DNA of 54,056 nucleotides from Methanothrix sp. (GTDB lineage Archaea > Halobacteriota > Methanosarcinia > Methanotrichales > Methanotrichaceae), in NCBI GenBank assembly GCA_026394505.1, contig JAPKYC010000300.1:1-54056 (forward strand), written 5' to 3'. Below the pieces are notes generated by a model. That model did not search any database. It saw nothing but the letters and a program-made list of their open reading frames with translations, and was not told where the DNA came from. The position numbers and the translations under genes were made by a program. The first letter of the stretch is position 1, and each line of letters starts with the position of its first letter. Shown in pieces: positions 20,480 to 46,815 of the stretch.

Positions 20480-20494
20480 ACTCTTCCTCCAAAA

Positions 20495-28010: not shown

Positions 28011-28019
28011 GCTCCTCCT

Positions 28020-28394
28020 CTATATTTCACCCAGAGGTGCAGCGAACTGTTCTTTATGCTTCTCGCCTGAGTCCAGCCTGGTATAGGCCACATCCACAAT
28101 CATGCGATGCTCCTGGTTCTCAATCTTAACCCACTCTATGGTTATCACATCGGATAGCCAGCGTAAAAGAGCACCTTGAACCAAAAATTGAGTCGCAGTC
28201 GCCAGCACATCGCTGTTGGGCATAAAAACCAGTTGCATTAAGCCGCAGCCGAAGTCGGGTCTGTTGACCCGTTCTCCTGGGCTGGTAAAAAGAATCTGAA
28301 AGATCATATCCTTCACGTGATCATCAAGATTGGTGACTGCAGTACGGCCTTTGCTATCGAAATGAAAAGGGTAGTCGAGGTAATATGAGTTCAT
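28020..28394 (-). CDS. GPW/gp25 baseplate protein
   Basis: YPF, QILFTSPGERVNRPDFGCGL. Confidence 0.95.
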   Translation of the reverse strand: MNSYYLDYPFHFDSKGRTAVTNLDDHVKDMIFQILFTSPGERVNRPDFGCGLMQLVFMPNSDVLATATQFLVQGALLRWLSDVITIEWVKIENQEHRMIVDVAYTRLDSGEKHKEQFAAPLGEI

Positions 28395-28411
28395 GATTCA
28401 ACTTCCAGGTT

Positions 28412-28921
28412 TTATTTTAATTCAAATACGGCAAACGCAACGTATCCGTTCCCATCGTGAGCCTCAACCAAGTGATAGCCTTTGGCAGCTTCTCCTGGCG
28501 GCATAAATGTAAATTGGAACTTTCCATTTATTCCATTCATTGCATGGATGTTTTTTGGACTATCCCATATCAAGGTGACATTAGTAGAGCTTGTTGGGAA
28601 GAAATTTGCATCAGCAGTCACATTTGTATTAATATCGCCAGATGATGGGGTTAGCTTAAGAGTAGGCGACTCAATATGGACGAGTTGCGCCGAATATAGG
28701 CCCGTGAAGGTGTTTGTGAATTCTTTTTCATTGTCCTTCAAGTAATCAAGCAGACCCTGAGCGATAGCTGCAAACAGAATCCTCCTATCAGCCTTCCCTG
28801 TTTCAGGCAGCAATTCACCTTTAACTGCCAGCCATTCCAATTTAAGGGCATTCTCTATCGATTCTGCAAGGCTGTCCTTAAATGATGAGTCGGGAGTTGA
28901 TGAACCTGCCTTAAGTGTCAT
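28412..28921 (-). CDS. Hypothetical eCIS protein between spike and gp25
   Basis: GGAGG RBS; helical N-half (DRRILFAAIAQG), Ig-like C-half; no PAAR motif. Confidence 0.7.
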   Translation of the reverse strand: MTLKAGSSTPDSSFKDSLAESIENALKLEWLAVKGELLPETGKADRRILFAAIAQGLLDYLKDNEKEFTNTFTGLYSAQLVHIESPTLKLTPSSGDINTNVTADANFFPTSSTNVTLIWDSPKNIHAMNGINGKFQFTFMPPGEAAKGYHLVEAHDGNGYVAFAVFELK

Positions 28922-28942
28922 TCACCTAAATCCTCCTATTCT

Positions 28943-29665
28943 TCATCCCGTTCTTACCTTCGTGGAGAGCAGTGCCGGCGTGGGCGGTGGAAGAGGGGGC
29001 ACCGGAGGCGCAGGTGTCACCGGAAAGACTCCCAGCGCCATCTCTCCCGGGTGCATGTGCAATTGATATATCATCACTATCTGGTTCAGATACGAGAGAA
29101 GCTGGTCTCCGAAGACAACCGGATGGGGCGCGTTCTCCACCAGCTCTATCTGGGGTGCCTCCACCACTGCCTTGGTCGCCCCTTTGATGGTGATCATCCC
29201 CTGCTGCACTTTTATCTCCAGCATATTGCTCCCGCCATCATCGCTCACAGTGATGGTCTGGCTGTTGTCGTTCAATGTGACCATCAGCCCCTGGTCGCTT
29301 CGAACGATCTTCATGGGCGGCGTGGCTGCTGTTCCGCTATTGTCCTTGGGGGGCTGATCGCGTCCCCACCAGCATCCGGTCCATATTGGTCGAGAGAGGT
29401 CCCCAGCCTCAAACTCCATCCACACACCGGCCCCCGCCGGTGGGATTGTGAACTGGCCTACGCCGTCCCCGGCATAGGGAACGCAGGGCTCTGCCCAGTA
29501 TGTGGAAACGTCAGCGCCCACTTCCGGGACGTGGGCCTGGATGCGGCCTCTGTTCTCCGGATCGTCGATGGAACTAACTGTGCCCCGATATTTGCCGTAG
29601 AACCTTTGCATCTGCAGATGCAGTCCATGTCTGTCAGAAGTCATCTGAATAGCGATCATCTCCAT
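28943..29665 (-). CDS. Spike protein (phage baseplate assembly protein V / gp5 OB fold) with HxH tip
   Basis: FYGKYRGTV...DPENRGRI, WAEPCVPYAG, P..G.GVWMEFEAGD..RPIW.G; C-terminal HMHPG and Pro-rich tail. Confidence 0.92.
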   Translation of the reverse strand: MEMIAIQMTSDRHGLHLQMQRFYGKYRGTVSSIDDPENRGRIQAHVPEVGADVSTYWAEPCVPYAGDGVGQFTIPPAGAGVWMEFEAGDLSRPIWTGCWWGRDQPPKDNSGTAATPPMKIVRSDQGLMVTLNDNSQTITVSDDGGSNMLEIKVQQGMITIKGATKAVVEAPQIELVENAPHPVVFGDQLLSYLNQIVMIYQLHMHPGEMALGVFPVTPAPPVPPLPPPTPALLSTKVRTG

Positions 29666-29688
29666 GTGATCTCGGTCATTTTTTCCTC

Positions 29689-30768
29689 TTAGAGGCCCAG
29701 GGCATTTCTCCGGAGGACAAAGCGCTGTGTATAGCCGCTACCATCGATTGAGTGAAGGACGCTCTCCACGAAGTAGGTGCCGCTGAAGAGCTGGCCGGCT
29801 CCGTGCACATCAACCGTCCTCTTGGCCCGAAGGATTGATCCGTAGTCCACTGTGCCAACCTCACCTTCGGCCTTGATCGCCCAGGAGGCGCGGTCAACTT
29901 CTGCCTGGGCATAGGTCTGCAGCTCACATGTCAGTGCCAGGCCTGTACGGCTGAGAAGAACGAGGCGCTGCCGCTCGCTGCCAAGCGTAGGCTGAGATCC
30001 GAGCGCAGGCAGAGATATGCTTGTGGCGGACGCAGGCTGGTCTGAGAGGGTCTCTGTGTCCAGGCCAGTGATCTGAGCTGCTGTCGGTCGGAGCATCTCG
30101 TGGCGCAGCCGAAAAGCTCTGACATTAGTTGCCCCGGCCATATTGACGAATAGCGGATTCTGGGGGCTATCTTCGAGCCTGGGGGGATGAAAGTGCCCCT
30201 CCAGGACGCCGGTCAGTGCATTGGCCTCTACATAGCACTGAAAGCCGTTTCTCCAGGCCAACTGGCGGAGAAAGGCGATATCCGTCCCCTTCTGAAAGAC
30301 CGTCTGCTCCGGCTCCTGGCGGGTCCAGCTCGTCTCCTCCACATTCGGAGCGAAGCCGTACTCATTGAAGACCTCTGAAGCGATCTGGCTGTCCGACATG
30401 TTGGCCCAGGCTCTGACCTTCTCCTCCAGGTTCATGAGAACGGATGGATCCAGGGCGACGATGCTCATGCTCGAACCTCCGGGATCGCTGGAGAGATCTG
30501 CGCTGACCTCTATCACATGGGCCACGATGAGCGTCTCAGAATGGTTGTCAACATTGACGAGGACCTTGATGCTGTCCAGCCTTTGGAAGATATCGTCGTC
30601 GAGCACCGTCCAGCCGGAGCCGTCCTCTGAAACTGCCACAGCCAGCCGAAGCCGCAGAATGCTCGCCATCTCCGAGTGGTCCTCAAACTCAATCTGCTGG
30701 ACTGCAGCCAGGAGATCCGATCCGGCGGCCAGGTCGTTGATCATCAGTTGGTAGGATATATCGCTCAC
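29689..30768 (-). CDS. Phage late control D / gp27-like baseplate hub
   Basis: W.NMSDS.IA, FQKGTDIAFLRQLAWRNGF, G...FSGTYFVESVLHSI...YTQRF. Confidence 0.88.
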   Translation of the reverse strand: MSDISYQLMINDLAAGSDLLAAVQQIEFEDHSEMASILRLRLAVAVSEDGSGWTVLDDDIFQRLDSIKVLVNVDNHSETLIVAHVIEVSADLSSDPGGSSMSIVALDPSVLMNLEEKVRAWANMSDSQIASEVFNEYGFAPNVEETSWTRQEPEQTVFQKGTDIAFLRQLAWRNGFQCYVEANALTGVLEGHFHPPRLEDSPQNPLFVNMAGATNVRAFRLRHEMLRPTAAQITGLDTETLSDQPASATSISLPALGSQPTLGSERQRLVLLSRTGLALTCELQTYAQAEVDRASWAIKAEGEVGTVDYGSILRAKRTVDVHGAGQLFSGTYFVESVLHSIDGSGYTQRFVLRRNALGL

Positions 30769-30793
30769 GGCTTTGTTCCTCGGACTATCCTGG

Positions 30794-31069
30794 TCATGGG
30801 TGGGGGATCAGTATCCTCCGACCCGGCCTGGCCACGAGATCATCAGGCCACAATGCATAGTTGGCATCGCAGATGGCCCAGAAGCGCTCCGGGTCGCGAT
30901 AGAAGCTGTGAGCTATATGATCCAGACGTTCGCCCTCACGCACTGTATGGACGGCTGCGGCCTTTGGAGGGGGGATGAAGCGGATCTTTTTGTAGAGAAT
31001 AGTCCTGCCTTCTCTATCCATTATCTGGTGGTTGCCCACGCTCTGGTAACGGCTTGTTTTGAAGAACAT
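30794..31069 (-). CDS. LysM/tail-X-like baseplate protein
   Basis: SRY, HTVREGERLDHIAHSFYRDPERFWAICDAN, PGRRILIP. Confidence 0.88.
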   Translation of the reverse strand: MFFKTSRYQSVGNHQIMDREGRTILYKKIRFIPPPKAAAVHTVREGERLDHIAHSFYRDPERFWAICDANYALWPDDLVARPGRRILIPHP

Positions 31070-31082
31070 GGCTTTTCCTTCC

Positions 31083-31760
31083 TCAGAATGGCAGCATGGA
31101 TGTTATCTGCTCCACACTGCTGGCCAGATTGAGCCTGGCCAGCGCCTCTTTTTGAGACTGATATGCAATGTAGACATCCCTGCCAAGGCTCGTCTGTTTC
31201 AGGTCATCGTTTGTCAGGACCTTCATCCCCAGGGTGACCTTCGCCCGGAGGGGGTTAAGCTGCTGGTCGAAGGCCTGCTCGGTCACCGAGAAGCTTGTCA
31301 CCCGCACAGGCACAACGCGGGACTTTCCCCAGACGAAGAGGGTGAGGGGCAGTTTGCTGGAGGTGATCTGAGCGCCGCCCTGGCCGCTTAGAAGCTCTAT
31401 CTTCACTCTCTGCGCCTGGGAAGGGTAGAGGAGCATCTCCAGGGCGGCGAGTGCCGGGTGAATGCCGAACTGGACTGTGTGGGGATGAAACGCCGGCTCT
31501 GAGAGCTGGTCTGCCGCGTCCAGATCGACTGTGATGTTGATTGTCTCCACAGGCGGGCCCGTAACGACGTAGGCCTCCTCCCTGGCAGAGCCTTTCTGAT
31601 CTGAGCTCTGCCGGGGTATCCTATCAGTCAGGTTGCGGCTGAGCTGCTCGGGGTTGTACTGGAAGACGATCACATTTGGCACAGGCCCCAGAAAGTGCGA
31701 TGGAAATGAGACCAGAGCGCCCTTCTGGAGCCTGGGACGGAGGGGGAAGTCGGAGGACAT
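31083..31760 (-). CDS. CIS tube-initiator-like protein
   Basis: LQKGAL, FQYNPEQLSR, LFVWGKSRVVPVRVTSFSVTEQAFDQQLNPLRAKV. Confidence 0.85.
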   Translation of the reverse strand: MSSDFPLRPRLQKGALVSFPSHFLGPVPNVIVFQYNPEQLSRNLTDRIPRQSSDQKGSAREEAYVVTGPPVETINITVDLDAADQLSEPAFHPHTVQFGIHPALAALEMLLYPSQAQRVKIELLSGQGGAQITSSKLPLTLFVWGKSRVVPVRVTSFSVTEQAFDQQLNPLRAKVTLGMKVLTNDDLKQTSLGRDVYIAYQSQKEALARLNLASSVEQITSMLPF

Positions 31761-31770: not shown

Positions 31771-33114
31771 TTATTTCTTCTTTTTACTCTTTGCAGGTTC
31801 TATCCCAGCAGCTTTGTAGACCATTTGCTGGTGGACTGCATCTTCTTCGCCAGGACGATGCTTTCTGCTATGTAAAAAGTGGATGCAGAAATGCCCAGGA
31901 TATTTATTGTCTTCATGGTGATTCTTTAGGGTCATGCCTTTTTCAAAATTTTTGATGCCGCTCTTGCCAAATCCATGCGGACAACCATGCTGAGATGCGG
32001 CGATTTTTCTGCCCTTAATTGGATCCGCATCAATCGTAATTATAATGGCTCTTCTGGTCCATAATTTGTGAGGGGTTTGTTCGCACCAAGCCACAAAATC
32101 TCCTTTGAAATTGTAGATATCTTTCAAGATCTGCGTATCTGCTGCCGAAATGGGATAGATATCCGCATGAGTATCAACGGATATTGCTTTTGCCATATAT
32201 GATTTTTCGGCTCCAATATCGGTGACAATAGCAGTGCCTCCGGGTTTAAAGAACTTGATGACCTCTTTGATATCCAAGAGATCGCCTGCCTCTTTTGCCT
32301 TAATTTGGGAGGATTCCGGCACTTGTTCACCTTTTTGCTGTCTCTGTATAGGAATTAGAGCAACTTGGCCACTATTCCTTGAAGTCTGCTGAACTACATG
32401 AGTCAACTCATGCGCCAACAACTTATCTCTTGCTTCGCGTTTCGATGATTGATTATTCTCCCCAACTACAATGTCATTGCCCATTGTGTAAGCTTTGGCA
32501 TTCAATGCCCGCGCCGTCTCTACTGCCTGCTCATCAGCATGCACCCTCACATGGCCGAAGTCGTGCCCAAACCGAGGTTCAAAGAATCCACGCGCCTGCG
32601 GTGACAGAGGCTGCCCGCCTCCCCGCATGGATCGAATCTGCGCCTCCAGCCCCCGGCTGACCTGTTTTGTCTCTCCGCTTGGCCCCTTCCTCTGGACAGC
32701 TTCTTCTTCCTCCTCCTCAGGCCCCGCCTGGCGCTGGACTAGTGACGTAATCTGCTCGGCTATCGGCTTCGCCTGAACCTTCTCCTCCTCTTCCTCATCA
32801 GGCTGTCTCTGCACCACCTCGCACTCGAGGCAGGCTCGATGCACTTGCTTTTGGGCAGCAGGCTCAGGCATGCTCATCACCTGCTCTGCCACCCGATCGG
32901 CCTCGCGCTCGTACTCGTCGCCGGGCTCATTTACGATGAGCTTCGCCTGGAGGGCTCTGGAGAGGAGCCGCTGCTGCACCGCCTGGTTGCCGATGGCCTT
33001 CTGATGGGCAAGGAGCGGACTCAGGGCAGGCTGGGGCCTTGCCCGATGTAGCCTCGCAGGACTTGCCGATTGGCTCCTCGCGGATTGGGTCTGGCGATGT
33101 GAAATCTCGAACAT
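31771..33114 (-). CDS. DUF4157 cargo protein C, with a putative cell-wall-acting His/Cys domain
   Basis: GNQAVQ, QAKL.VNEPGD.YE.EAD, GGQPL...FEPRFG.DF..VRVH, LLAHELTHVVQQ; C-terminal THADIYP...WTRRA...IAASQHGCPH...GHFCIHF..S. Confidence 0.85.
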   Translation of the reverse strand: MFEISHRQTQSARSQSASPARLHRARPQPALSPLLAHQKAIGNQAVQQRLLSRALQAKLIVNEPGDEYEREADRVAEQVMSMPEPAAQKQVHRACLECEVVQRQPDEEEEEKVQAKPIAEQITSLVQRQAGPEEEEEEAVQRKGPSGETKQVSRGLEAQIRSMRGGGQPLSPQARGFFEPRFGHDFGHVRVHADEQAVETARALNAKAYTMGNDIVVGENNQSSKREARDKLLAHELTHVVQQTSRNSGQVALIPIQRQQKGEQVPESSQIKAKEAGDLLDIKEVIKFFKPGGTAIVTDIGAEKSYMAKAISVDTHADIYPISAADTQILKDIYNFKGDFVAWCEQTPHKLWTRRAIIITIDADPIKGRKIAASQHGCPHGFGKSGIKNFEKGMTLKNHHEDNKYPGHFCIHFLHSRKHRPGEEDAVHQQMVYKAAGIEPAKSKKKK

Positions 33115-33168: not shown

Positions 33169-33798
33169 TTATATCTCAGGAATCTCAGCCTCAAAATCCT
33201 GCCAAATCCTATTATCATCACGGCAATTATATGTCCGACAGACAACAGGCCGGTTCTCATAGATGGTGCATCTTTTGCCATCCATATCAAAGTGGATACA
33301 ATATCCTCTCTCAGAGACGGCCACAGTGAAAGGCATACCATAATTACATTGAACTATGCCCTCCTCAAGGTCCTGAGCAGAGAGCGGGACGCTCAGCATG
33401 CAACAACGACCTTTGCACAGATCCATGCGCTTTGAGCAGTTTACGGATACAGATTGAACACTATATTTATCGGGAGTCGGATCCAAGACAACTTGAAGAG
33501 GATCTCTTGCGAACTCTTCTTCCAGGGATCTGCGAGACATTTCTCTTCTCTGGCCAAACTCCCTGCTACTGATAAAACCCTTTGAGATCAATAAGTCAAT
33601 TAATGCATTTAAATCAACCATGGTCTCCAAGTGCTGCATCTTGAGCTTCATAGACATGACATTAGTGAACTTCATGCCCTCAGTTATTTGATTCATGAAG
33701 TCGCTCTTAGGTTTGATCTCGTTATTTATCATAATATTATTTAAAATTGTACCCTCTCCATCCATATCATCATCTCCTTGATTATGGTGCCGACTCAA
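33169..33798 (-). CDS. YkgJ-family (CxxCxxCC) Zn/Fe-chelating protein
   Basis: C.KR..LCKGRCC, YCIHFD...RCTIYENRPVVCRTYNC; start may be at 33765. Confidence 0.85.
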   Translation of the reverse strand: MSRHHNQGDDDMDGEGTILNNIMINNEIKPKSDFMNQITEGMKFTNVMSMKLKMQHLETMVDLNALIDLLISKGFISSREFGQRREMSRRSLEEEFARDPLQVVLDPTPDKYSVQSVSVNCSKRMDLCKGRCCMLSVPLSAQDLEEGIVQCNYGMPFTVAVSERGYCIHFDMDGKRCTIYENRPVVCRTYNCRDDNRIWQDFEAEIPEI

Positions 33799-35572
33799 TC
33801 GGCCTTTTCACATAATTCATCTTGCTCATGTCACATGGATCCCTTAATCCTGGGATCTCCTTTAAAATGCTCTCTTTCCTCTTTGGAATTTCCATATGAA
33901 TACTTTTTTTGCAGAATTTATTCATCCCTACTATGATGTATTTCGACCCTGCATGCTGTACATAAGGGAATGAGTTTTTCAGATTGTCCACAGCAGACTT
34001 ATAGCCAGGATGCTTTTGCTTCATTTTCAAATTAACATCATTGATCATGCCCCAAGCTCGGCGCGCTACATCCATAAATTCTGTTGCTAGCTTGTCCTTC
34101 ATTTGCTCGTTCGTTTTCCTTCCCGATCCATGACCAAGGAAAATATCTTTATTTCCCGATCTCTCGACGAGCACTGCGTTCTCCAATCTCCAGGCGTTGC
34201 CAATTTTCTCATTGATGAGGTCATAGGCAGGATGATTCCAGAAGACCGCATGATCACCAATGACCAAATCCTTCTCAGAAGAAGGCGTTACTGTTTGCAG
34301 ACTTCCAACTCCGGGCTTCTTAGGAGGGCCCCCCAAGTAGAGATCCGCGAAAGCATTCCATTTGAGGCGTATCTTGTCCGAACCATATTTCTTTATCCGT
34401 TTGTTGAATTTCTCCTTTCCCAGTGTCTCTGCAAGTGACCTATAGTGGACAAGCGACAATAAATAGTCGCAATGGAGCAGCGTTCTCTTATGAGGCGGTT
34501 GAGGTTTGAACAGTTTCACTATAGCATTATATGGATCTTTCCTGCCTTGAGCACTCAGCCTCCACGAGTAACCCTCACTTGTATGATAATCCGGAAATGG
34601 TGCATCATCATTGAAAACTTTATGTCTATCTATGCGTTTAAGCTTTTTGATTTTCCCTCTCTTCTTCAGATCTTTGCGCTCACTGTAATTATCGATGACC
34701 TTGGGCTCCCAGTAATCCCGTGCATCATAGTTCACCCTTGGCCCAAAATACAAAGACGGTCCTGTAAATGGATAGCCGAAGGCATTTCTGCTCTGTGATT
34801 CTATCATATAGCGCGTTGTACCAAGGCGTTTCTTGACCTCCCTCTCAAGCTCAGATTCGTTCGAGAAATCAAATGCATCCCCAGCTGCAGCCATGTCCTC
34901 TACGATATTTTTTGCCTCTTTGCTGCGCCCCTTCCAATCCACAGACTTTATAAACTTCAGCCGTTCCACAGAAGTCGTCAGCTTCTTATTCAGAACCACC
35001 TTCCGCTGGACGAGATTTTGTGCGTATCTCCTAATAGCGAGGTCAGTTCTCATGAGTTCCGGGCTGGACTGTTGAATGGTATGAGTCAGCTCGTGAGAAA
35101 GGAGCTTCTTGCCTTCAGATGTGTTTGGGGAATAGTAGCCAGAACCGAATGCGACATCTTTTCTCGTAGTAAAAGCTTTGGCGCCAATCACCTCAGCTAG
35201 TAGAGCCGCTGGACGATCCGTATGAATGCGCACGTCCTTGAAGCGGTATCCAAACCTCGGCTCAAAGAAGTTGAGGAGCGAAGCTGGCAACGGCATTCCG
35301 CCGCCTTTCATGATATTGATTCGGGCTTCCAGATTGGGCCACATCTCCGGCATTTTGTCATGTATGGATTTTGCATGGAGGACGAAGTCAACCTTGCCCT
35401 GGATCTCACTGGAACGTAGCAGCCCTTGCGCTGCTTGATTACCAAGAAGTCGCATCTGGACTGGCAGTAGGTTGGGTGCATTAGCTGGCGAGTACATTGA
35501 TTTATCATGTCTCGTAGTGCCACTTTGATGGTTTAGACGCGAAGTGCTCTGTGTTCGCCTAAATTGTGACAT
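33782..35572 (-). CDS. DUF4157 cargo protein B, with a Tgl-like transglutaminase domain
   Basis: GNQA, FEPRFG..F.DVRIH, LLSHELTHTIQQ; then AI..LF...LHCDY...Y..L....G...FN, DLVIGDH..FWNHP, WRLENAV, FLGHGSG. Confidence 0.8.
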   Translation of the reverse strand: MSQFRRTQSTSRLNHQSGTTRHDKSMYSPANAPNLLPVQMRLLGNQAAQGLLRSSEIQGKVDFVLHAKSIHDKMPEMWPNLEARINIMKGGGMPLPASLLNFFEPRFGYRFKDVRIHTDRPAALLAEVIGAKAFTTRKDVAFGSGYYSPNTSEGKKLLSHELTHTIQQSSPELMRTDLAIRRYAQNLVQRKVVLNKKLTTSVERLKFIKSVDWKGRSKEAKNIVEDMAAAGDAFDFSNESELEREVKKRLGTTRYMIESQSRNAFGYPFTGPSLYFGPRVNYDARDYWEPKVIDNYSERKDLKKRGKIKKLKRIDRHKVFNDDAPFPDYHTSEGYSWRLSAQGRKDPYNAIVKLFKPQPPHKRTLLHCDYLLSLVHYRSLAETLGKEKFNKRIKKYGSDKIRLKWNAFADLYLGGPPKKPGVGSLQTVTPSSEKDLVIGDHAVFWNHPAYDLINEKIGNAWRLENAVLVERSGNKDIFLGHGSGRKTNEQMKDKLATEFMDVARRAWGMINDVNLKMKQKHPGYKSAVDNLKNSFPYVQHAGSKYIIVGMNKFCKKSIHMEIPKRKESILKEIPGLRDPCDMSKMNYVKRPIESAP

Positions 35573-35686: not shown

Positions 35687-37054
35687 TCATGCTATCCGAG
35701 TTGCTGTCTGTGATTCATCTGGAAGCGGAAAGTCTCCTTGGACCTCACAATCGCCTCGTCTGCATTTTCTGGTAGTCCCACGAATATGGCAGTTTCCATG
35801 TTCAGGATCTGTCCAGCATCTTTTTAAATTTGGCGTGCCAGAGACGTGAACATGCGTCGAGTTCACACGTGCACCTGAGAAGATTAAATGGGCTGCATCC
35901 GAATGCAGTCTGACACATCCATGTGACCAAGGACAGCCATCTACATGCTGATAATAGTGAAGAGCGATATGCCTGCAGCAATTGAATTCCACCCAATCTG
36001 AATACCTACTATGGCCTTTGTGGCAAACCGGAAATGGCCCGCCGATCGGAGTCAATGCGGAATTCTCTCGATTGGAATTATCGTTCTCGATATTACAGAG
36101 ACCGGCTCCTGTTGAGCATGGATGCGAATTTGAGCTCTCTCCATCACTATACCTCCAATCAACTGTTTGGCTGGTCAGGTGCACAAAAATATCCGTGATG
36201 AATCTAGATCCTCGCTGTCTCTCTCTTTGAACTCTATTTCCTTCGATTCTTAAGCTCTTTTGCTGAATAATATGCGTCAACTCGTGCGCCAGCAACCTCC
36301 TTCCCGCCACCGTCTCCGGCACATATTCCTCTTCTCCTAATACCACATTTCGGCCCACCGTAAACGCCCGCGCATTCACCGCCCTTGCCGCCTCCGCTGC
36401 CCTCGCATCCGTATGCACCCTCACCTGGCCGAAGTCTTGCCCGAACCTGGGCTCGAAAAAGCCACGCACATGCGGCGACAGCGGCTGCCCACTCCCTTTC
36501 AGGGATCGAATCTGCGCCTCCAGCCCGCGGCCGACCGCTCCACCGCCGGGCCCCTTCTTCTGGACAGCCACCTCTTCCTCCTCCGGCTCCTCCTGCCGCT
36601 GCACCTCGTCCCGCTGGGCCTGGACAGTCTCTTCCTCCTCCTTGTCGGGCTCCGTCTGGCGCAGCACCAACGGCGTGATCTGCTCAGCTATCGGCTTGGC
36701 CTGAATCTTCTCCTCCTCTTCCTCCTCAGGCTGCCTCTGCACCTCCTCCTCGCACTCCGGACAGGCCCTCTGCACTTGCTTTTGGGCCGCAGGCTCTGGC
36801 ATGCTCATCACCTGCTCAGCAATCCGGTCCGCCTCCTGCTCATACTTGTCCCCGGGCTCATTGACGACGAGCTTCGCCTGTATTATGCCGGAGCGAAGCA
36901 TGCGCTGCACCGCCTGATTCCCTAAAGGCCGCAGCCCTACAGGGACGGGGCCGATGGCATGCTCTGCAGTCGAATTTTCCGGCCCCCGCCTTGCAGGGCG
37001 CAGCAACTGGCCCTTGTTGGATTGCGTCCTTTTGACCTGAATCTCGTTCATCAT
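35687..37054 (-). CDS. DUF4157 cargo protein A, with a YkuD/L,D-transpeptidase domain
   Basis: GNQAVQR, acidic VQR repeats, LLAHELTHIIQQ; IFVHLTSQ, PCSTG, TPIG, IALH...SHGCVRL. Confidence 0.88.
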   Translation of the reverse strand: MMNEIQVKRTQSNKGQLLRPARRGPENSTAEHAIGPVPVGLRPLGNQAVQRMLRSGIIQAKLVVNEPGDKYEQEADRIAEQVMSMPEPAAQKQVQRACPECEEEVQRQPEEEEEEKIQAKPIAEQITPLVLRQTEPDKEEEETVQAQRDEVQRQEEPEEEEVAVQKKGPGGGAVGRGLEAQIRSLKGSGQPLSPHVRGFFEPRFGQDFGQVRVHTDARAAEAARAVNARAFTVGRNVVLGEEEYVPETVAGRRLLAHELTHIIQQKSLRIEGNRVQRERQRGSRFITDIFVHLTSQTVDWRYSDGESSNSHPCSTGAGLCNIENDNSNRENSALTPIGGPFPVCHKGHSRYSDWVEFNCCRHIALHYYQHVDGCPWSHGCVRLHSDAAHLIFSGARVNSTHVHVSGTPNLKRCWTDPEHGNCHIRGTTRKCRRGDCEVQGDFPLPDESQTATRIA

Positions 37055-37321
37055 CTAGCGATATTTCTCCAATAGCCCTCTGGCGATGCTTTCAGCCAGG
37101 CTTCTGGCCAGCCCTTCATCATCGTACGCCTGAGCCAATTGTATGGGCGGTACATCCAGTCGAGAGATCTCTTTGCCGACCAGGCCTTCAGGCAGTCTGT
37201 CCTGCGAAAGTCGGCGTTGCAACTCCTGTTCCAAGAGGGAGCCGAATAGTCCTGCTCGATCCGACCTCAGAGCAAATCCCTTGAGGACTATGCGATCGAT
37301 GCTCAAGTTGGTCTCTTGCAT
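37055..37321 (-). CDS. Small conserved eCIS accessory protein
   Basis: L.IDRIVL.G...LEQELQRRL...LARSLAESI; lies between the ATPase and the first DUF4157 gene. Confidence 0.7.
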   Translation of the reverse strand: MQETNLSIDRIVLKGFALRSDRAGLFGSLLEQELQRRLSQDRLPEGLVGKEISRLDVPPIQLAQAYDDEGLARSLAESIARGLLEKYR

Positions 37322-37359
37322 TGATTGTCTCCAGAATAGATCTTCTGTCAAGCCTTTCT

Positions 37360-39510
37360 TCAAGTGCAGTGCTTTCCCAGTTCCGCCTCTGTCACCAGCC
37401 TTCCGATCTTCGCATATTCCCTACGAGCGGCATGCATTATGTGCCCCATGCTTATCGCCGATCCCTCATCAGCAGCCAGGAAGGCTGCATTCAGGCTGAT
37501 GTTCCTGATGTTTCCTCCTGAGATCTCCATCCTGGCGAGCAGGTCATAGTCCAGGCCATCCAGATCTGCCTCCGGCGGAAAGGCCTTCTGCCAGATCATC
37601 AGCCTCCGGGCATAGTCTGGGAGAGGCAGATCGACGAGAAACCGCAGGCGGCGGAGGAATGCCTGGTCGAGAGCCGACTTCCTGTTGGTCGCCAGAATCG
37701 CCAGCCCGCTGTATTCCTCCATTCTCTGCAAGAGATAGTTTACCTCGATGTTCGCATATCTGTCGTGGCTGTCCTTCACCTCGGTGCGCTTGCCAAATAG
37801 CGCGTCGGCCTCGTCGAAGAAGAGCACAGCGCCACTGCTCTCAGCGGCGTCGAATATCCTCTTCAGGTTCTTCTCCGTCTCCCCGATGTACTTGCTCACG
37901 ACGCCTGCAAGGTCAATCCTGTAGAGATCCAGACTGAGATGACGGGCCAAGACCTCTGCAGCCATAGTCTTTCCTGTACCGCTCGGCCCGGAGATGAGGG
38001 CATTGATGCCACGGCCCCGGTTCAACCTCCTCCCAAAGCCCCAGTCATCGTAAACCCGTTGTCTGTTCTCGACCTGAGATGAGATCTCTTGAAGCTGCTG
38101 CAATGCATCAGATGGCAGGACGATATCGTCCCAGCAGGCCACGGGTGAGATCTTCTGGGCCAGATCGTGCATGTTCAATCCAGCCTGCTCCTTACAGGCC
38201 AGCCAGATGTCCTCAGCCTCTGGCACCGTTGCGCCACGGAGTCCGGCCTTCAACCTTGCGGTCTTGGCGGCCCGAACTGTATCATGAGGCCCAAAAGCGA
38301 ACTGCTCTGCTTCCTTTCCGAGAAGGCCGTCCAAGTGTCCGCCTTTGATCTGCAAAGCCTGCTTCCAGAGGTCGAGACGGTCTCCCGCATCAAGTCCTGG
38401 AACCTCGACCGACAGAGTCCCCCTCTCGAAGTGGCGGTGCCTCGTGCTGCCAATTATCATGAAGACCTCCGCCTGCTCAATGAACTCCATGGCTCTGGCC
38501 TCATTCTCCGGGGGGCCGCCATCAGGAAGCTCGATGTAAAATGTCGCTCCGGCGAGGATGCTCTCTCGTTCCAGCAACTGGACCATCTCCTGCAGATCGG
38601 CGCCCAGTGCCGGGAGCCTCGTGGTATCCATGCTGAAGATCTGGATTCCAAGGCGGCTGGAGATCTCAGCGGCCACAGCCCTCCTGCCAGTACCCTTCGC
38701 TCCGACGAGGTTAAGAGATGTGAGACAGCTTTCCCTCACCTCAGATTTCATCCACTGCTCAATGCTCTCCAAAAGGCGAAAATGAGAGTGAGTGAGAGGC
38801 GCAGGCGAAAGAGGCCTAAGCAATCCCAGGAGCTTCTCATCTGGATGGTTGAATCCAAGGATATAATCTGTAACCCTCTCATCCATTCTCAGCGGCTGAA
38901 GCGCCCAAGCCCCGGCTCCGGGATCGAGGACTATCAGGTGGAACCTTCGTAAAGTGGCCCCGGCCATGAGGCTCCTTCGTTCCTCCATCTCGGCCCCTTC
39001 TTCCCCAAAGATCTCCAGGGCCAGGCTGGGTGTTGGGTATTTTCTGTTTAGGTCGTCCTGAATATAGGCGATAAGCCTCTCGAAGGAGGGGTCCATCTCA
39101 TGGGCGAAGGCGAGGAGTAGCACATCCCTCTCGAATGATGTGAGCTGAAAGAGGTCTGCCAGGAGATCGAGGGGCAATTGAATCCCAGCCTCTGTAGCAG
39201 CCTCTCGCGCATCCTCTATACTCATCCCCACTTCAGCGAGGCACTCATCTATTCTGCAGATCTCAGAGCTCTTCTCGTAGAACTCCGCCTCGGCTTTGCA
39301 TCGCTCTGAAAGCAGCCAGTCGAACCTGTCATCGCTTATCACCATCCCTGTATAGCTTTGGAGTGGATCGCTCTTCCACTCATGCCTCAGCCACATAGCC
39401 CGGCGCTGTAACAGGAGCTTCAGCCGCTGCATCTCGCTCTGGATGTAGCCGCGGTTTAGATCTGCCTGGGTACTCTCTTGGGACCTGATCTCTCCCTGGA
39501 GGAAACTCAT
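37360..39510 (-). CDS. eCIS AAA+ ATPase (Afp15/Pvc15-like)
   Basis: N-terminal winged helix, degenerate first AAA (GAKGTGR), GPSGTGKT, VVSKYIGETEKNL, FFDEADALFGKR, DRYAN.EVNYLLQRME. Confidence 0.95.
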   Translation of the reverse strand: MSFLQGEIRSQESTQADLNRGYIQSEMQRLKLLLQRRAMWLRHEWKSDPLQSYTGMVISDDRFDWLLSERCKAEAEFYEKSSEICRIDECLAEVGMSIEDAREAATEAGIQLPLDLLADLFQLTSFERDVLLLAFAHEMDPSFERLIAYIQDDLNRKYPTPSLALEIFGEEGAEMEERRSLMAGATLRRFHLIVLDPGAGAWALQPLRMDERVTDYILGFNHPDEKLLGLLRPLSPAPLTHSHFRLLESIEQWMKSEVRESCLTSLNLVGAKGTGRRAVAAEISSRLGIQIFSMDTTRLPALGADLQEMVQLLERESILAGATFYIELPDGGPPENEARAMEFIEQAEVFMIIGSTRHRHFERGTLSVEVPGLDAGDRLDLWKQALQIKGGHLDGLLGKEAEQFAFGPHDTVRAAKTARLKAGLRGATVPEAEDIWLACKEQAGLNMHDLAQKISPVACWDDIVLPSDALQQLQEISSQVENRQRVYDDWGFGRRLNRGRGINALISGPSGTGKTMAAEVLARHLSLDLYRIDLAGVVSKYIGETEKNLKRIFDAAESSGAVLFFDEADALFGKRTEVKDSHDRYANIEVNYLLQRMEEYSGLAILATNRKSALDQAFLRRLRFLVDLPLPDYARRLMIWQKAFPPEADLDGLDYDLLARMEISGGNIRNISLNAAFLAADEGSAISMGHIMHAARREYAKIGRLVTEAELGKHCT

Positions 39511-39520
39511 TGTCTGCCTC

Positions 39521-40762
39521 TCATGGTATGACCAGGGCGCGCTCAGCCAGACCCTCCACACCATTCACACTAACCCTCACGAAATACTCCCCCATCATCA
39601 GGGAGGCCGGCAGATCGAAGGCTATCTTCTTCGGAGTCTTCGGATCGTATGCAATCGATTGTGTCACTGCATCCCCTATGATGGTCATGCACGCCCCCTC
39701 CTTCTGGGAATCAAAGAGCCTCTCTCCGGTGATCTGCAGCCTTCGCTTGTTAGGGCTGAGGGTGGTTAAAAGGAGGTCATCGATCTTTGGCACCAGCATG
39801 AATACGGCCATATTTGACTGCAGGGCAGAGTGCTCCATAGCGGGCTCTCCCATCATCAGGTCCACGACAACCCTCAGTGTCTTGGGCCCTGGCTGCAGAT
39901 CCTCGTGATCAGGGATGGGGACTAAAATCCGGTCCTCGGGGCCAGTCATGGCCTCGGCCTCAACAGAGCCCAGGAATACCCTTGATCTGGCCGGAAACTT
40001 GCCACCGCAGACGACCAGGGTGTCGCCTATGCCAGCATAAGGAGCCGTCCTCTGCCTGCCAGGATCACCCTTTATAATCACCCTCAATTCCTCTATCCAG
40101 GGCCTCTTAAAGGACGAGGCGTAGATCCTCGGACCACCAGATGGAAGGGCTCCTACAGGAATGGGGAGTCTCTTTGGCCTCTGGCTCTCTATCTGAATAA
40201 CGCTCACTTTGTAGGCCACAGATAGTCGGTAGGGCTTTACGAGCGCCGTCCAGATCTTTATCAGATCCTCAAGGCTCATTGGGTCCGGGTAGATCTTGAC
40301 ATTCTCGAACTGCCCCCGGAGACTGTCATCCAGGATGCTTTTTTGCAGACCTGCGGGCAGATTATTGTGGATCTTGTAGAGCCCCTCGGTTATGAGTGAG
40401 TAGTCGTGAAGAACCCTCATGGCATCTCCCAGGATTGTCTGAGCCTCTGAATCGCTGTCCTCCCCATCACCGAATGCTGTTAGCAGATAGTGCAAGTCGA
40501 GGGAGAGCATGGGAATACCCGATCCCGAAGCCAAGAGCATCTCCTGGTTCTTGAGATGAGGATTCTCAGTGACCCTATACAGAAACAGATTGACCCTTGC
40601 GCCCTCCCCAGCACCGGTCTGAACATCAGGAGGAGCTATCGTTACTGGGACCGCCTCAGCCTCCTTCGCATCCGTCTTCCTGTACTCCATCCTATCAGAG
40701 AGCAGGTTTCGAAGGGTGGCGCTCACCCCATTTAGAACTGTGTAGGTCCTCTGGTTGCCCAT
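39521..40762 (-). CDS. DUF4255 (Afp16/Pvc16-like) tail cap/terminator with C-terminal IPT-like domains
   Basis: VNLFLYRVTEN..L.N, LDLHYLLTAF, LG.AM..LHD, L.KIW, YRLSVAYKVSVIQI. Confidence 0.9.
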   Translation of the reverse strand: MGNQRTYTVLNGVSATLRNLLSDRMEYRKTDAKEAEAVPVTIAPPDVQTGAGEGARVNLFLYRVTENPHLKNQEMLLASGSGIPMLSLDLHYLLTAFGDGEDSDSEAQTILGDAMRVLHDYSLITEGLYKIHNNLPAGLQKSILDDSLRGQFENVKIYPDPMSLEDLIKIWTALVKPYRLSVAYKVSVIQIESQRPKRLPIPVGALPSGGPRIYASSFKRPWIEELRVIIKGDPGRQRTAPYAGIGDTLVVCGGKFPARSRVFLGSVEAEAMTGPEDRILVPIPDHEDLQPGPKTLRVVVDLMMGEPAMEHSALQSNMAVFMLVPKIDDLLLTTLSPNKRRLQITGERLFDSQKEGACMTIIGDAVTQSIAYDPKTPKKIAFDLPASLMMGEYFVRVSVNGVEGLAERALVIP

Positions 40763-40775
40763 GAGACAGACACCC

Positions 40776-41837
40776 CTAATACTCCCAGCTCATGTAGCTC
40801 CTGATCATATCATAACCCTGGAAGCCTGACGGCCGCTGCCCGGAGGGCTGTTTTGGCGGCGGAGCCTCCGCATGAATTTCCAGTGTGCCAATTCTCACAT
40901 GAACTGTGCCGGGCTCTTGAGGTGTGAGCTTCTCAGGAATATTCAATGGATGAATAGGCGATGCAATCTCCGCTGAACTGACCCGACAGGAGCCATCCTC
41001 CTCCAAAAGGTCAGAATGCGTCGGCCTTTGGTGACGCTCCACAGATGCAGCCTTCTCCTGGGCCCCCGACCTTTTATCCCCCTTAACTCCAAAAGCCTGC
41101 TGGTCCTCCTCAGAGGAGACCGTTGGGCGGGCCATCTCGCCGCCAATGTCGCTGGATCCAGCCAGAGGCTTCAGAGATCGGGATTGATCAAGATCTCCCC
41201 TGCCTCTGTGAAGGTCCTGATCTATCGGCAGGACCTTTGCGGGTGCTGGAGACTGCGGCAGGCCATCATCCAGCAGTGCCCTGGACTGCCCAGTGACCGG
41301 GACATGTGCATCATTGCTGGCATTACTAGCGGCATCATCGTATTTGGCCAGCGCATCGCCATCGATGACATAACCTGCTGTGGTTTTTTTGGCATTCATC
41401 GCGCCCTCATCTGTATAATCCCTGGCCCCGATCTCCCCAGTCTCATCCGCCTCAACAGAGGTCGGCTTTGCTGCATTCGCCCACCCTCCGCGAGAGGGCT
41501 CTAGCCATCTCTCGTCCGAACTCGCGCCCTCGGCCTCTCCTGGCGGCCTCTTCATCTCATCAGGCTGGTGGACCTCGGGTGTGCCGGGGCCGCTCTTCGC
41601 GGCCCGGATGATGTAAGTGGGCGCGGATTGGCCATCATTCGCAGCCCCAACAGGCATTTCCTGAGCATCACCCGTCTGAGATGGAGGCGGCTTAGACTGG
41701 TGCCCCGGACCCCTGCCTCCCCCTCTGATCGTGGCCGGCCCTGGCGCGAAATAAGGGATGAACCTAGGGCGAACGGCTAGGGTCTCCAGCCCTGCGGCTC
41801 GCAAGACGAGGGTGTGGATTAAATCTCCTCTAGTCAT
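40776..41837 (-). CDS. Largely disordered eCIS protein
   Basis: P/G/A/D/E-rich middle; short conserved-looking ends (VRPR....FAP; VHVRIGTLEIHAE). Confidence 0.7.
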   Translation of the reverse strand: MTRGDLIHTLVLRAAGLETLAVRPRFIPYFAPGPATIRGGGRGPGHQSKPPPSQTGDAQEMPVGAANDGQSAPTYIIRAAKSGPGTPEVHQPDEMKRPPGEAEGASSDERWLEPSRGGWANAAKPTSVEADETGEIGARDYTDEGAMNAKKTTAGYVIDGDALAKYDDAASNASNDAHVPVTGQSRALLDDGLPQSPAPAKVLPIDQDLHRGRGDLDQSRSLKPLAGSSDIGGEMARPTVSSEEDQQAFGVKGDKRSGAQEKAASVERHQRPTHSDLLEEDGSCRVSSAEIASPIHPLNIPEKLTPQEPGTVHVRIGTLEIHAEAPPPKQPSGQRPSGFQGYDMIRSYMSWEY

Positions 41838-42700
41838 CTCCTCTCCCTCTCCTCCTCGATTAGATCCAGGTATCTCCGCCTTCGTCCTGGCGATAGCCCG
41901 AGGATCTCATGTTCGCTCCAGTGATAATGAATGGCAATTGTGTGGACCTCCCTGTAGATGTGCTCAGACCTCATCGCCAGCTCCTGCGAGAGGTAGCCTG
42001 CTGTGTCGAATATCGTCGAGTACCGGCCATTGCAAAATGGACAGACCAGGTCGAGCCGGAGTTCAGACTGAGGGTCCAGATACGCCATGGCCTGAGAGAT
42101 CAGGCTGGCCAGCCGCGGGGAGATCTTCTCGACCGATCTACCCTCCCCATTGGAGATCTCCAATATGCAGCTACGAAGGAAAAGATCTGCTGCTGCCTCA
42201 TCATCCACGAGGGCCAATCCGGCGGCCGCCTCCTGGTCTGAGCCTGTTGGGAGACGGAAGCGAACTCTCCAGGATTGTCCGCCATCTTCAAAGACCGCCT
42301 CGTGATACCTGAGTTCACAAGGATAAGGGGAAAGGATAAGGCTGCTGGTCGAAAGCTCGATCTCCATAGTCTCGCCACAATCCCTGTTTGGGCAGACAAG
42401 GGTGCACTGCATCCTCTCCCCAAACATCAGCCTTCGCAAGTGGAGGAGCAGAGCTTCGCGGTCACCTGCGCAAAGGGATCGGATAAGATCTTCATCCACA
42501 TCATGCCGAGGCCCAATTCCTGCCAGGCATCTTGCAAGAATGGCAGTCGTCCATTGGGCAGGCAGAAAGCCATTGCCGATCTCATAGAGGAATGCCTCGT
42601 CATCTCCTGGAAGAAGGCGAATCCTAGCCTCCCGGAAGCATTCTCCATCGATCCAGCAGCCGCTCGGAAGAATGACATTCACTTCGTTGCTCATATTCAC
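41834..42700 (-). CDS. T4 gp26-like hub/tail assembly chaperone fused to a DUF6760-like C-terminus
   Basis: LP.G, GDREALLL.LRR..FG, CPNRDC, FRLPTG.DQ, DPQ, CPFC; YREVH.IA.HYHWSE.EIL.L...RRRRY. Confidence 0.8.
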   Translation of the reverse strand: MNMSNEVNVILPSGCWIDGECFREARIRLLPGDDEAFLYEIGNGFLPAQWTTAILARCLAGIGPRHDVDEDLIRSLCAGDREALLLHLRRLMFGERMQCTLVCPNRDCGETMEIELSTSSLILSPYPCELRYHEAVFEDGGQSWRVRFRLPTGSDQEAAAGLALVDDEAAADLFLRSCILEISNGEGRSVEKISPRLASLISQAMAYLDPQSELRLDLVCPFCNGRYSTIFDTAGYLSQELAMRSEHIYREVHTIAIHYHWSEHEILGLSPGRRRRYLDLIEEERERR

Positions 42701-43224
42701 GTCGGAGGCTCATTATAACTTGGCTCTGTGGGCTCTTTCACTTCGTAGTCCCTCTCCCAGCCCTCGTTCTCAAGCTTGATCGTCTCTATAGCCACGGCGT
42801 TGGCGCTGGCATCCAGAGCCGGAAGCGCCTGGTATTCGGAGACCCAGCAGCGAAAGACCTTGTAGGCAAGGACCTTTTGGCCGGCCTCGTTGTATACCTC
42901 TATGATTATGTCTTTGCGAAAATCTTTGAGGGAGACCTCAGAGCCAAGACCTGAGCCGTAGTTCCATACCTTGTTCGCCCACTTCTCAAACTCTGTATCG
43001 TGAGTGATGCCTCGCTCCAGAGTGATAGCATCGTACTTTGTCCTTCCGGGAGACTTCCGGTCACTGCTCGGATCGCCTCCCTCGCGATAGGTAACTGGAT
43101 CGGTCGTCCTCTTTAAAGCACCTACCTTGCTGACTCCCGCCACATATCTTCCTTCCCACTTGACCCTGAACTTGAACGATTTATATGGATCGAACCTCAG
43201 GGGATTGACGCTGAACTGTGCCAT
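42697..43224 (-). CDS. Tail tube protein (T4 gp19-like)
   Basis: RFDPYK.FKFRV, YREGGD, PGRTKY..ITLERG, RKD..I, CWVSEY, VAIE...L.NEGWE. Confidence 0.96.
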   Translation of the reverse strand: MAQFSVNPLRFDPYKSFKFRVKWEGRYVAGVSKVGALKRTTDPVTYREGGDPSSDRKSPGRTKYDAITLERGITHDTEFEKWANKVWNYGSGLGSEVSLKDFRKDIIIEVYNEAGQKVLAYKVFRCWVSEYQALPALDASANAVAIETIKLENEGWERDYEVKEPTEPSYNEPPT

Positions 43225-43233
43225 AAATCCTCC

Positions 43234-46431: not shown

Positions 46432-46763
46432 TAATATTCGCCTCTTTTCATCATAATCTTTCGAAATGCTGTAACCAAGATCTCACCATCAGAAAGCTTC
46501 CCATCTGATTTAATTCCGTCAACCTCAATTAGAAATCTCTCGATAGCTTCGTAATCCATTTTCTTAATCTCTGCAAACTTCATTGCAGTAATCTTCAATT
46601 CCTTCTTGGAAGAATACCTCTTAGGCATCTTTCCCTCTAAAGAATCGAAAATAAGCCCACAATTCCTGTGCCCAATTGTCGAAGTCGAAGGATTTGCAGA
46701 TGGTTTGATATATGCTTTAAATGTGCAACCTTCAACGAACTCGCCACATTCACATAGAATCAT
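46431..46763 (-). CDS. Small Cys/His protein, first gene of the eCIS operon
   Basis: MILCECG...IGHRNCG; GGAGGGG RBS; stop overlaps the sheath ATG (TAATG). Confidence 0.75.
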   Translation of the reverse strand: MILCECGEFVEGCTFKAYIKPSANPSTSTIGHRNCGLIFDSLEGKMPKRYSSKKELKITAMKFAEIKKMDYEAIERFLIEVDGIKSDGKLSDGEILVTAFRKIMMKRGEY

Positions 46764-46796
46764 TCGAACCCCTCCAATAAGGCCAAGAAGAAAGGG

Positions 46797-46815
46797 CTCC
46801 TCTCATCGAGAGGAG
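46797..46815. promoter_or_regulatory. Inverted repeat in the eCIS leader
   Basis: CTCCTCTC-atc-GAGAGGAG, 34-52 nt upstream of the first gene. Confidence 0.45.

What the first reader, a model, noticed from the sequence alone, without database searches (positions are those of the whole stretch)
35687..36205. DUF4157 cargo A ends in a YkuD-type L,D-transpeptidase
Seen: IFVHLTSQ...PCSTG...TPIG...IALH-x10-SHGCVRL (catalytic Cys codon 35915-35917), 11 Cys in the C-terminal region, no signal peptide. Established: YkuD enzymes cross-link or trim peptidoglycan, and an L,D-transpeptidase-fold T6SS toxin family (Tlde1) exists. Inference: with no substrate in the host and no Sec route, it is probably an injected cell-wall toxin. 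The His-to-SHGC spacing is shorter than the canonical motif.
Basis: partly seen in the sequence, partly recalled or inferred. Interest (0 to 1): 0.85.

Follow-up and report, generated by a model that had tools for sequence, protein, structure and literature searches.

The report
Methanogen injector carries anti-bacterial wall enzyme
A methane-making archaeon, in whose genome no peptidoglycan-building genes were found, has a gene inside its phage-tail-like injection cluster for a protein tipped with an intact L,D-transpeptidase-type domain, which likely gets fired into bacteria to damage their cell wall; no archaeal injection system has yet been shown to hit bacteria in the papers searched.

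Summary
Confirmed. ORF 35687-37054 (-), 455 aa, is an eCIS_core (DUF4157) carrier plus a YkuD domain. His366, His378 and Cys380 are intact, and the fold matches solved L,D-transpeptidases (Z 15.0). It sits in the cargo slot of a near-complete contractile injection locus in a Methanothrix genome in which no Mur ligase or PBP was found. The short His-x10-SHGC spacing is the family norm (134 of 152 relatives) and also occurs in PDB 4LPQ, so it is no defect. The architecture is known in bacteria (EAT6). This protein is not a Tlde1 member. What is new is the host. Three of 392 Methanosarcinia genomes carry this tip, from three separate branches of a mostly bacterial family. Eight of 69 other Methanothrix cargos carry peptidoglycan-directed domains (M23, VanY, NlpC/P60, PG_binding_1, OmpA-like). 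Best reading (0.6): an injected, Tlde1a-like stem-peptide trimming enzyme aimed at bacteria. Against: bacterial members show no immunity gene, EAT6 was toxic without a reported export signal, and loading, activity and target are untested.

The parts
35687..37054 (-). Cargo A, 455 aa: acidic carrier N-terminus, eCIS_core/DUF4157 (aa 191-267), YkuD tip (aa ~286-408), Cys-rich tail (aa 413-436)
35831..36199 (-). YkuD/L,D-transpeptidase-fold domain (aa ~286-408)
   Evidence: Pfam; AF2 pLDDT 90.4; Foldseek; VIA Z 15.0 to 4xvo
35915..35917 (-). Cys380 codon, predicted nucleophile of S-H-G-C
   Evidence: Cys in 98 of 98 aligned rows
35957..35959 (-). His366 codon, predicted catalytic base
   Evidence: His in 98 of 98 aligned rows
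36254..36484 (-). eCIS_core (DUF4157) domain of cargo A
33782..35572 (-). Cargo B: eCIS_core + TGL (Tgl-like transglutaminase) tip
   Evidence: TGL 32.6 bits, cut-off 23.7
33169..33798 (-). CxxCxxCC protein directly after cargo B, overlapping it by 17 nt
31771..33114 (-). Cargo C: eCIS_core + His/Cys-conserved beta-barrel tip related to exported Bacillota proteins; no YkuD match
37360..46431 (-). Upstream eCIS block: sheath with beta-propeller insert (43234-46431), tube (42697-43224), T4_baseplate protein (41834-42700), Pvc16 (39521-40762), AAA ATPase (37360-39564)
18176..31760 (-). Downstream eCIS block: CIS_tube, LysM, GPD hub, VgrG-like spike, gp25, two baseplate-J-type genes, tail-like protein, DUF6519 (eBAP5 fibre anchor per PMC12923769)

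Best explanation
This Methanothrix gene encodes a DUF4157 carrier fused to an intact YkuD-family catalytic domain inside a contractile injection locus; the protein is likely loaded into the particle and injected into bacteria, where it would attack peptidoglycan stem peptides and weaken the wall. Shown: domain layout, conserved His366/His378/Cys380, position in the AAA-ATPase-to-CIS_tube cargo slot, no signal peptide, no Mur ligase or PBP found in the host. Predicted: L,D-transpeptidase fold. Inferred: (1) loading through the DUF4157 carrier; (2) delivery to the target's wall compartment; (3) His366-activated Cys380 cuts the bond between residue 3 and D-Ala4 of tetrapeptide stems. With no anchor or substrate-binding domain, the acyl-enzyme is most likely resolved by water or a free D-amino acid (trimming or exchange, as in Tlde1a) rather than by productive 3-3 cross-linking. 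That depletes cross-linking substrates and causes swelling and lysis. The archaeal producer would need no immunity protein because it has no substrate.
For: Pfam YkuD above cut-off. All 36 Foldseek rows shown and the top 20 VIA rows are YkuD-fold enzymes. Only 2 of 33 conserved family columns deviate, against a median of 4. Export route is either-or: 0 of 100 relatives with the DUF4157 HELxH motif have a hydrophobic N-terminus, against 9 of 52 without it. 31 of 36 bacterial loci have DUF4157 in the same ORF, and 30 of 36 have eCIS genes in the fetched flank, 5 of them by the ATPase only. Relatives fuse the domain to PG_binding_1, Tse3_N or a polysaccharide deacetylase (1 each of 42); the archaeal G312 protein is DUF4157 + PG_binding_1 + YkuD. 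No Mur ligase or PBP in G000 or in 5 of 5 near-complete relatives, so a role on the host's own wall is unlikely. 8 of 69 same-genus cargos carry other peptidoglycan-directed domains. Three separate acquisitions in Methanosarcinia (AU p 5.8e-6). DUF4157 proteins are secreted in a sheath-dependent way in a haloarchaeon (PMC11566945 section 10). EAT6 inhibits E. coli but not yeast (PMC8213781 section 12).
Against: No shared immunity-like ORF follows the gene in bacterial producers, which do have peptidoglycan: of 36 loci, 10 are followed by CIS_tube, 12 by another DUF4157 gene, 8 by no ORF of 100 aa or more (3 of these at a contig end) and 6 by mutually unrelated ORFs. Tlde1a has such an immunity protein. 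EAT6 was toxic from pET vectors with no export signal reported, whereas Tlde1a is toxic only in the periplasm, so EAT6 toxicity does not prove wall attack. The tip is rare: 3 of 123 DUF4157-positive genomes in the class and 0 of 69 other Methanothrix cargos, which also fits a transient passenger. The window protein has lost a Cys kept in 85 of 98 rows (L334). The only archaeal CIS tested so far kills other archaea. 55 of 69 same-genus cargo tips have no Pfam match, so bacterial targeting is not shown to be the rule.
Confidence: 0.6

Rival explanations
1. The domain is injected and active but uses its Cys-His pair on a non-wall substrate, such as a protein or a cytoplasmic peptidoglycan precursor or recycling peptide; the target could then include archaea.
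For: EAT6 was toxic without a reported export signal. No immunity gene in bacterial producers. Neighbouring cargo B is a Cys-dependent acyl-transfer enzyme. 12 of 42 relatives scanned carry a weak Peptidase_C15-like second domain.
Against: Every characterised structural neighbour acts on peptidoglycan stems (substrates recalled). PG-binding fusions occur in the family, including archaeal G312. EAT6 did not kill yeast.
Confidence: 0.15
2. The enzyme acts on bacterial peptidoglycan but not lethally: it loosens the wall locally to help tube entry or co-injected cargos, or modulates a syntrophic partner.
For: No immunity gene needed even in bacteria. PMC9012536 proposes either symbiosis or defence for such loci in ANME archaea. 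Some haloarchaeal DUF4157 cargos were not toxic in the host tested.
Against: Tips are swapped on a shared carrier in a fixed slot, the pattern of polymorphic toxins. Sister cargos include nuclease-type tips (Ntox1, Ntox44, Endonuclea_NS_2).
Confidence: 0.12
3. The gene is a passenger in a horizontally acquired cassette and has no use in the archaeon.
For: Rare and patchy. Tip GC3 is 0.41 against 0.67-0.71 for two host genes. A fourth archaeal DUF4157-YkuD gene (G331) lies in two overlapping frames. One family Cys is lost.
Against: The frame is intact in a second sample. Conserved columns are kept better than the family median. The carrier and several machine genes are closest to same-genus homologs, so the tip appears grafted onto a resident system. 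Three independent gains.
Confidence: 0.1
4. Assembly or binning artefact: a bacterial eCIS joined to an archaeal contig.
For: Metagenome-assembled genome, 78% complete, 310 contigs. No laid contig spans the whole stretch.
Against: Depth is about 9-10 across the locus and 8-12 on flanks in run X1, which may be the source. A second sample (X2, same study) bridges both junctions (18015-18777, 45767-47491) and the tip-carrier join (35824-37354). ATPase, hub, spike and Pvc16 are closest to other Methanothrix loci. DUF4157 occurs in 27 of 59 genomes of the genus.
Confidence: 0.03

Closest known systems
EAT6 (Parafilimonas terrae eCIS toxin; PMC8213781) and the Bacteroidetes DUF4157-YkuD predictions in PMC11297309 supplement 7
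   Same: DUF4157 + YkuD-like architecture, eCIS locus, no signal peptide; EAT6 inhibits E. coli. Three of 15 YkuD rows shown are DUF4157,YkuD proteins.
   Different: Bacterial hosts. The Bacteroidetes sequences shown have His-x7-SHGC, a spacing absent from the 152 relatives here, so they are probably another subfamily. Its substrate is untested.
Tlde1a / Tlde1 family (PF10908, DUF2778), T6SS effectors
   Same: L,D-transpeptidase fold used as an injected wall toxin; shortened His-to-Cys spacing (H121, H129, C131); disulfide-rich.
   Different: No PF10908 match for the window tip; VIA Z 6.6 against 15.0 for housekeeping enzymes; T6SS rather than eCIS; has an immunity protein; found in proteobacteria.
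Housekeeping L,D-transpeptidases (YkuD PF03734; PDB 4LPQ, 4XVO, 5BMQ, LdtMt2) and L,D-carboxypeptidases Csd6/Pgp2
   Same: Fold and catalytic motif; 4LPQ has the same His-x10-SHGC spacing.
   Different: These are exported or anchored and act on the cell's own wall (recalled). This protein has a DUF4157 carrier, no signal peptide and a host without peptidoglycan genes.
Archaeal peptidoglycan hydrolases (PMC12352652)
   Same: Bacterial-origin wall enzymes in archaea, patchy and shuffled; the paper notes a weak link of signal-less ones to sheath genes (P = 0.059).
   Different: That survey needed catalytic plus wall-binding domains and tested M23 proteins. YkuD, DUF4157 and Methanothrix do not occur in its main text or in 12 of 13 supplements searched. 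It states that CIS action on bacteria remains untested.
Halogeometricum borinquense CIS (PMC11566945)
   Same: Archaeal CIS with DUF4157 cargos secreted in a sheath-dependent way.
   Different: Membrane-bound and contact-dependent, kills archaea, has toxin-immunity pairs. 'Peptidoglycan' does not occur in its text.

Membership tests
[quoted passage not shown] | Profile score above the curated cut-off | tested here: met
   29.8 bits whole protein, 32.8 tip, cut-off 23.4
[quoted passage not shown] | Catalytic His and [S/T]HGCh Cys | tested here: met
   His366 and S377-H-G-C380-V; His and Cys in 98 of 98 rows
[quoted passage not shown] | YkuD fold | tested here: met
   Predicted model pLDDT 90.4; VIA Z 15.0, rmsd 1.7 over 106 residues to 4xvo; Foldseek E 1.5e-6 to 4lpq
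[quoted passage not shown] | Textbook spacing HXX14-17[S/T]HGCh | tested here: not met
   Spacing is x10. It is not obligatory: 4LPQ shares it and active Tlde1a is shorter
[quoted passage not shown] | Activity on tetrapeptide stems (cross-linking, trimming or exchange) | not testable with these tools
   Needs a muropeptide assay
Tlde1 (PF10908 / DUF2778) | Match to the Tlde1 profile | tested here: not met
   No match at E <= 1 or E <= 0.1; 1 of 38 family members at E 0.086
Tlde1 (PF10908 / DUF2778) | Adjacent immunity gene and T6SS locus | tested here: not met
   Cargo A is followed 114 nt later by cargo B; the locus has eCIS markers
DUF4157-carrier eCIS cargo (EAT class) | N-terminal eCIS_core domain with a variable C-terminal tip | tested here: met
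   E 3.7e-31; carrier 57% identical to cargo C, which has an unrelated tip
DUF4157-carrier eCIS cargo (EAT class) | Inside an eCIS locus (sheath, tube, baseplate, spike, Pvc16, AAA ATPase) | tested here: met
   the same slot holds other tips in G028, G450, G012, G032, G440
DUF4157-carrier eCIS cargo (EAT class) | Loaded into particles and toxic to a target | not testable with these tools
   Needs particle proteomics and toxicity tests
EAT6 subfamily | Sequence similarity of the tip to EAT6 | not tested
   EAT6 sequence was not in the text or supplement rows seen

The most novel reading that the evidence does not exclude
Methanosarcinia run anti-bacterial injection systems. Methanothrix and relatives have repeatedly grafted bacterial wall enzymes (YkuD at least three times; also M23, VanY, NlpC/P60) onto their own DUF4157 carriers and fire them into neighbouring bacteria, needing no immunity genes. 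That would be cross-domain killing by an archaeal contractile machine, in the main acetate-using methanogen of sediments and digesters.
Probability: 0.45. Interest if true: 0.85.

Novelty: new variant of a known kind. Interest (0 to 1): 0.62.

Why it matters
[quoted passage not shown] A cargo whose only known substrate class is peptidoglycan, in a host without it, points to the target's domain from sequence alone and gives a cheap test: one gene and one Cys-to-Ala control in E. coli. DUF4157 occurs in 123 of 392 Methanosarcinia genomes, so a positive result would bear on how methanogens compete with or manage bacterial neighbours. It also defines an uncharacterised His-x10-SHGC effector family spread over many bacterial phyla.

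Tried and rejected
Single-sequence search of the tip against PDB sequences found nothing; a family profile and the fold searches did. The idea that cargo C's GHFCIHF tip is a second YkuD enzyme was dropped: profile comparison probability 0.16%, no Foldseek match at E <= 0.001, best VIA Z 6.7 to split-barrel/PilZ-like folds, no L,D-transpeptidase among the rows shown; a missing match does not prove a different fold. 'No immunity gene, hence an archaeal-only safe toxin' was dropped as evidence, since bacterial members lack one too. The closest clade was not found in genome contigs and gave one 3-kb metagenome contig without eCIS genes, so its hosts are unknown; the carrier best hits are archaeal for P0002, P0003, P0005, P0007 and L021 and narrowly bacterial for P0004 and P0006, a hint only. 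Cys co-variation could not assign disulfides because the close clade dominates. No RNA holder was listed. G035's weak 28-residue match and the G222 YkuD hit on a 2.9-kb contig were not followed up. Earlier findings of this scan: nothing. Paper searches with no hit: YkuD+archaea+eCIS; archaea+YkuD+peptidoglycan+toxin+methanogens. Methanothrix+contractile injection gave 3 listed papers; in the one searched, no peptidoglycan or DUF4157. No complex was folded, as no binding claim is made.

Full report
OBSERVATION. The quoted stretch is the end of a 455-aa ORF at 35687-37054 on the minus strand. Pfam gives eCIS_core (DUF4157) at 191-267 and YkuD at 289-390, both above cut-off. The N-terminus has no hydrophobic signal stretch. 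An AlphaFold2 model of residues 281-455, built on 98 aligned rows, has mean pLDDT 90.4. All 36 Foldseek rows shown are L,D-transpeptidase-fold entries. VIA gives Z 15.0 to a Mycobacterium smegmatis L,D-transpeptidase, 11.8 to the carboxypeptidase Csd6 and 6.6 to Tlde1a; the first unrelated row is at 3.6.

HOST AND LOCUS. Members of the 90%-identity cluster of a window housekeeping protein are labelled Methanothrix sp., and the genome has McrA. Runs that hold the stretch are labelled freshwater sediment where a label is given. The window carries a near-complete eCIS locus at 18176-46431: sheath, tube, Pvc16, AAA ATPase, three DUF4157 cargos, CIS_tube, LysM, hub, spike, baseplate and DUF6519. 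DUF6519 is described as a tail-fibre anchor in PMC12923769 (passages). Cargo A is the first cargo after the ATPase; the same slot holds other tips in five same-genus loci inspected. The assembly holds. Run X1, which may be the source, covers the locus at depth 9-10, like the flanks. Sample X2 of the same study bridges both junctions and the tip-carrier join. ATPase, hub, spike and Pvc16 are closest to other Methanothrix loci among those fetched, while tube and sheath are closest to G367 and to bacterial loci. No Mur ligase or PBP was found in this 78%-complete genome or in five near-complete relatives; the controls rang in all 10 named bacteria.

THE FAMILY. A search of 1.84 billion representatives gave 160 proteins at E <= 0.001. 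With the hits, I held 152. Of these, 99 match the DUF4157 core and 134 have exactly ten residues between His and SHGC; 6 lack the motif. PDB 4LPQ has the same spacing and Tlde1a's is shorter (PMC9638812 passages), so the short spacing is no defect. The window protein departs from 2 of 33 conserved columns, against a median of 4; one departure is loss of a Cys kept in 85 of 98 rows. None of 100 relatives with the DUF4157 motif has a hydrophobic N-terminus, while 9 of 52 without it do (many are fragments). A genome scan gave 44 loci: 36 family members from Actinomycetota, Acidobacteriota, Pseudomonadota, Cyanobacteriota, Bacteroidota, Nitrospirota and others, plus 8 distant Methylocystis-type genes. 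Of the 36, 31 have DUF4157 in the same ORF and 30 have eCIS genes nearby. No shared immunity-like ORF of 100 aa or more follows them.

ARCHAEAL DISTRIBUTION. DUF4157 occurs in 27 of 59 genomes of the genus and 123 of 392 of the class. The family profile finds full-length tips in 3 of those 392: this genome, G312 and G367, plus one weak 28-residue match not followed up. G312's protein is DUF4157 + PG_binding_1 + YkuD among six cargos; G367's follows the ATPase directly. In a quick tree of 178 domains (15 rows dropped for a missing motif or a truncated domain) the three fall far apart. In a 50-row subset picked by hand after seeing that tree, without the Methylocystis rows and two long branches, one clade is rejected (AU p 5.8e-6, LG+G4). 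Separate gains from bacteria are the simplest reading, though the tree is unrooted. G331, from another family of the phylum, has a DUF4157 gene whose YkuD part, which the family profile does not match, lies in an overlapping frame. The window tip has GC3 0.41 against 0.75 for its carrier, and the carrier's best hit is a same-genus cargo: a foreign tip on a resident carrier. I fetched cargo regions from 22 of the 26 other positive genomes of the genus and scanned 69 of 74 core-bearing ORFs (5 had almost no tip). Fourteen had a second Pfam domain, and eight of those, in seven genomes, are peptidoglycan-directed: OmpA-like x3, PG_binding_1 x2, M23, VanY, NlpC/P60. The M23, VanY and NlpC/P60 catalytic motifs look intact (motifs recalled). 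None had YkuD, and 55 had no assigned tip.

MECHANISM. Shown: architecture, residues, locus, absence of a signal peptide and of host peptidoglycan genes. Predicted: the fold. Inferred: loading through DUF4157, as DUF4157 proteins are secreted in a sheath-dependent way in H. borinquense (PMC11566945 section 10); delivery into a bacterium; Cys380 acylation on tetrapeptide stems with release of D-Ala. I favour trimming or D-amino-acid exchange over productive cross-linking, by analogy with Tlde1a (preprint 10.1101/2020.02.18.954545 passages); sequence cannot settle this. The many cysteines may form disulfides in an oxidising target compartment, as Tlde1a has two; this is untested. Confidence 0.6. 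Rivals: non-wall substrate 0.15, non-lethal wall remodelling 0.12, passenger 0.10, artefact 0.03.

PRIOR ART. The architecture is known. EAT6 is a 370-aa DUF4157 + YkuD_like protein that inhibits E. coli but not yeast (PMC8213781 section 12 and supplement rows). DUF4157,YkuD proteins from Bacteroidetes appear among predicted toxins, one of them in the first row with score 0.998 (PMC11297309 passages and supplement 7). None of the 15 YkuD places in that file is archaeal. Archaeal wall hydrolases are known (PMC12352652 section 6 and passages), but YkuD, DUF4157 and Methanothrix do not occur in its text or in 12 of 13 supplements. CIS loci in methanogens and ANME are known without a shown target (PMC9012536 and preprint 10.1101/2024.05.23.595608 passages). 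Searches found no paper joining archaea, YkuD and eCIS or toxins. The library lacks most subscription papers, bioRxiv supplements were closed, some supplement files were cut, and eCIStem could not be seen, so an unnoticed listing is possible.

VERDICT. Real, and correctly read. A YkuD-family member and DUF4157 cargo, not a Tlde1 member, though it likely works like one. New variant of a known kind: the novelty is a peptidoglycan-directed cargo in an archaeal injection system, recurring across Methanosarcinia, which makes an open question testable. Interest 0.62.

Noticed in passing
window 31771-33114 (-), tip aa ~256-447: Cargo C's tip belongs to a large unnamed family (1936 hits; the named ones among the 120 listed are Bacillota hypotheticals, and the two checked have signal-like N-termini) with invariant His and Cys residues. 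Confident beta-barrel model without a clear structural match. Possibly another envelope enzyme from Firmicutes.
   Followed up: partly
window 33782-35572 and 33169-33798 (-): Cargo B carries a Tgl-like transglutaminase tip (PF20085) and is overlapped by a CxxCxxCC gene, the only non-DUF4157 gene in the cargo slot and so a candidate immunity or activator. EAT14 has a different transglutaminase family.
   Followed up: partly
window 43234-46431 (-): The 1065-aa sheath protein has a Ycf48/BNR-type beta-propeller inserted around aa 450-575.
   Followed up: no
L085:7704-10112, L098:5698-7986, L101:341-2314, L103:1-1062, L110:4833-6944: Other Methanothrix DUF4157 cargos carry M23 (+M15_4-like), VanY, NlpC/P60 and PG_binding_1 domains.
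   Followed up: partly
L112:9580-11259 (G312) and L113:9120-10349 (G367): Two more archaeal DUF4157-YkuD cargos; G312's has PG_binding_1, G367's has GHGC in place of SHGC.
   Followed up: yes
L114:1420-2875 (G331): After an AAA ATPase, a DUF4157 gene and a YkuD-bearing ORF with long His-to-Cys spacing overlap in different frames; the flanks are housekeeping genes.
   Followed up: partly
L115:9359-9997 (G229): Stand-alone 213-aa YkuD-matching ORF among archaeal housekeeping genes, without DUF4157.
   Followed up: no
P0014, P0021, P0037, P0040, P0045, P0049, P0054, P0064, P0082, P0099, P0148, P0150: A large group of long relatives has a weak Peptidase_C15 (pyroglutamyl peptidase-like) match after YkuD, 12 of 42 scanned.
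   Followed up: no
G000 contigs C163 and C190: Two McrA C-terminal matches on different contigs of the genome; duplicate operon or strain mix not examined.
   Followed up: no
window 12033-13998 (-) and 10836-12022 (+): A Cas4/PD-(D/E)XK-like gene with an unassigned 424-aa neighbour, and weak IS1-transposase and terminase-small-subunit-like matches, lie near S19e.
   Followed up: no
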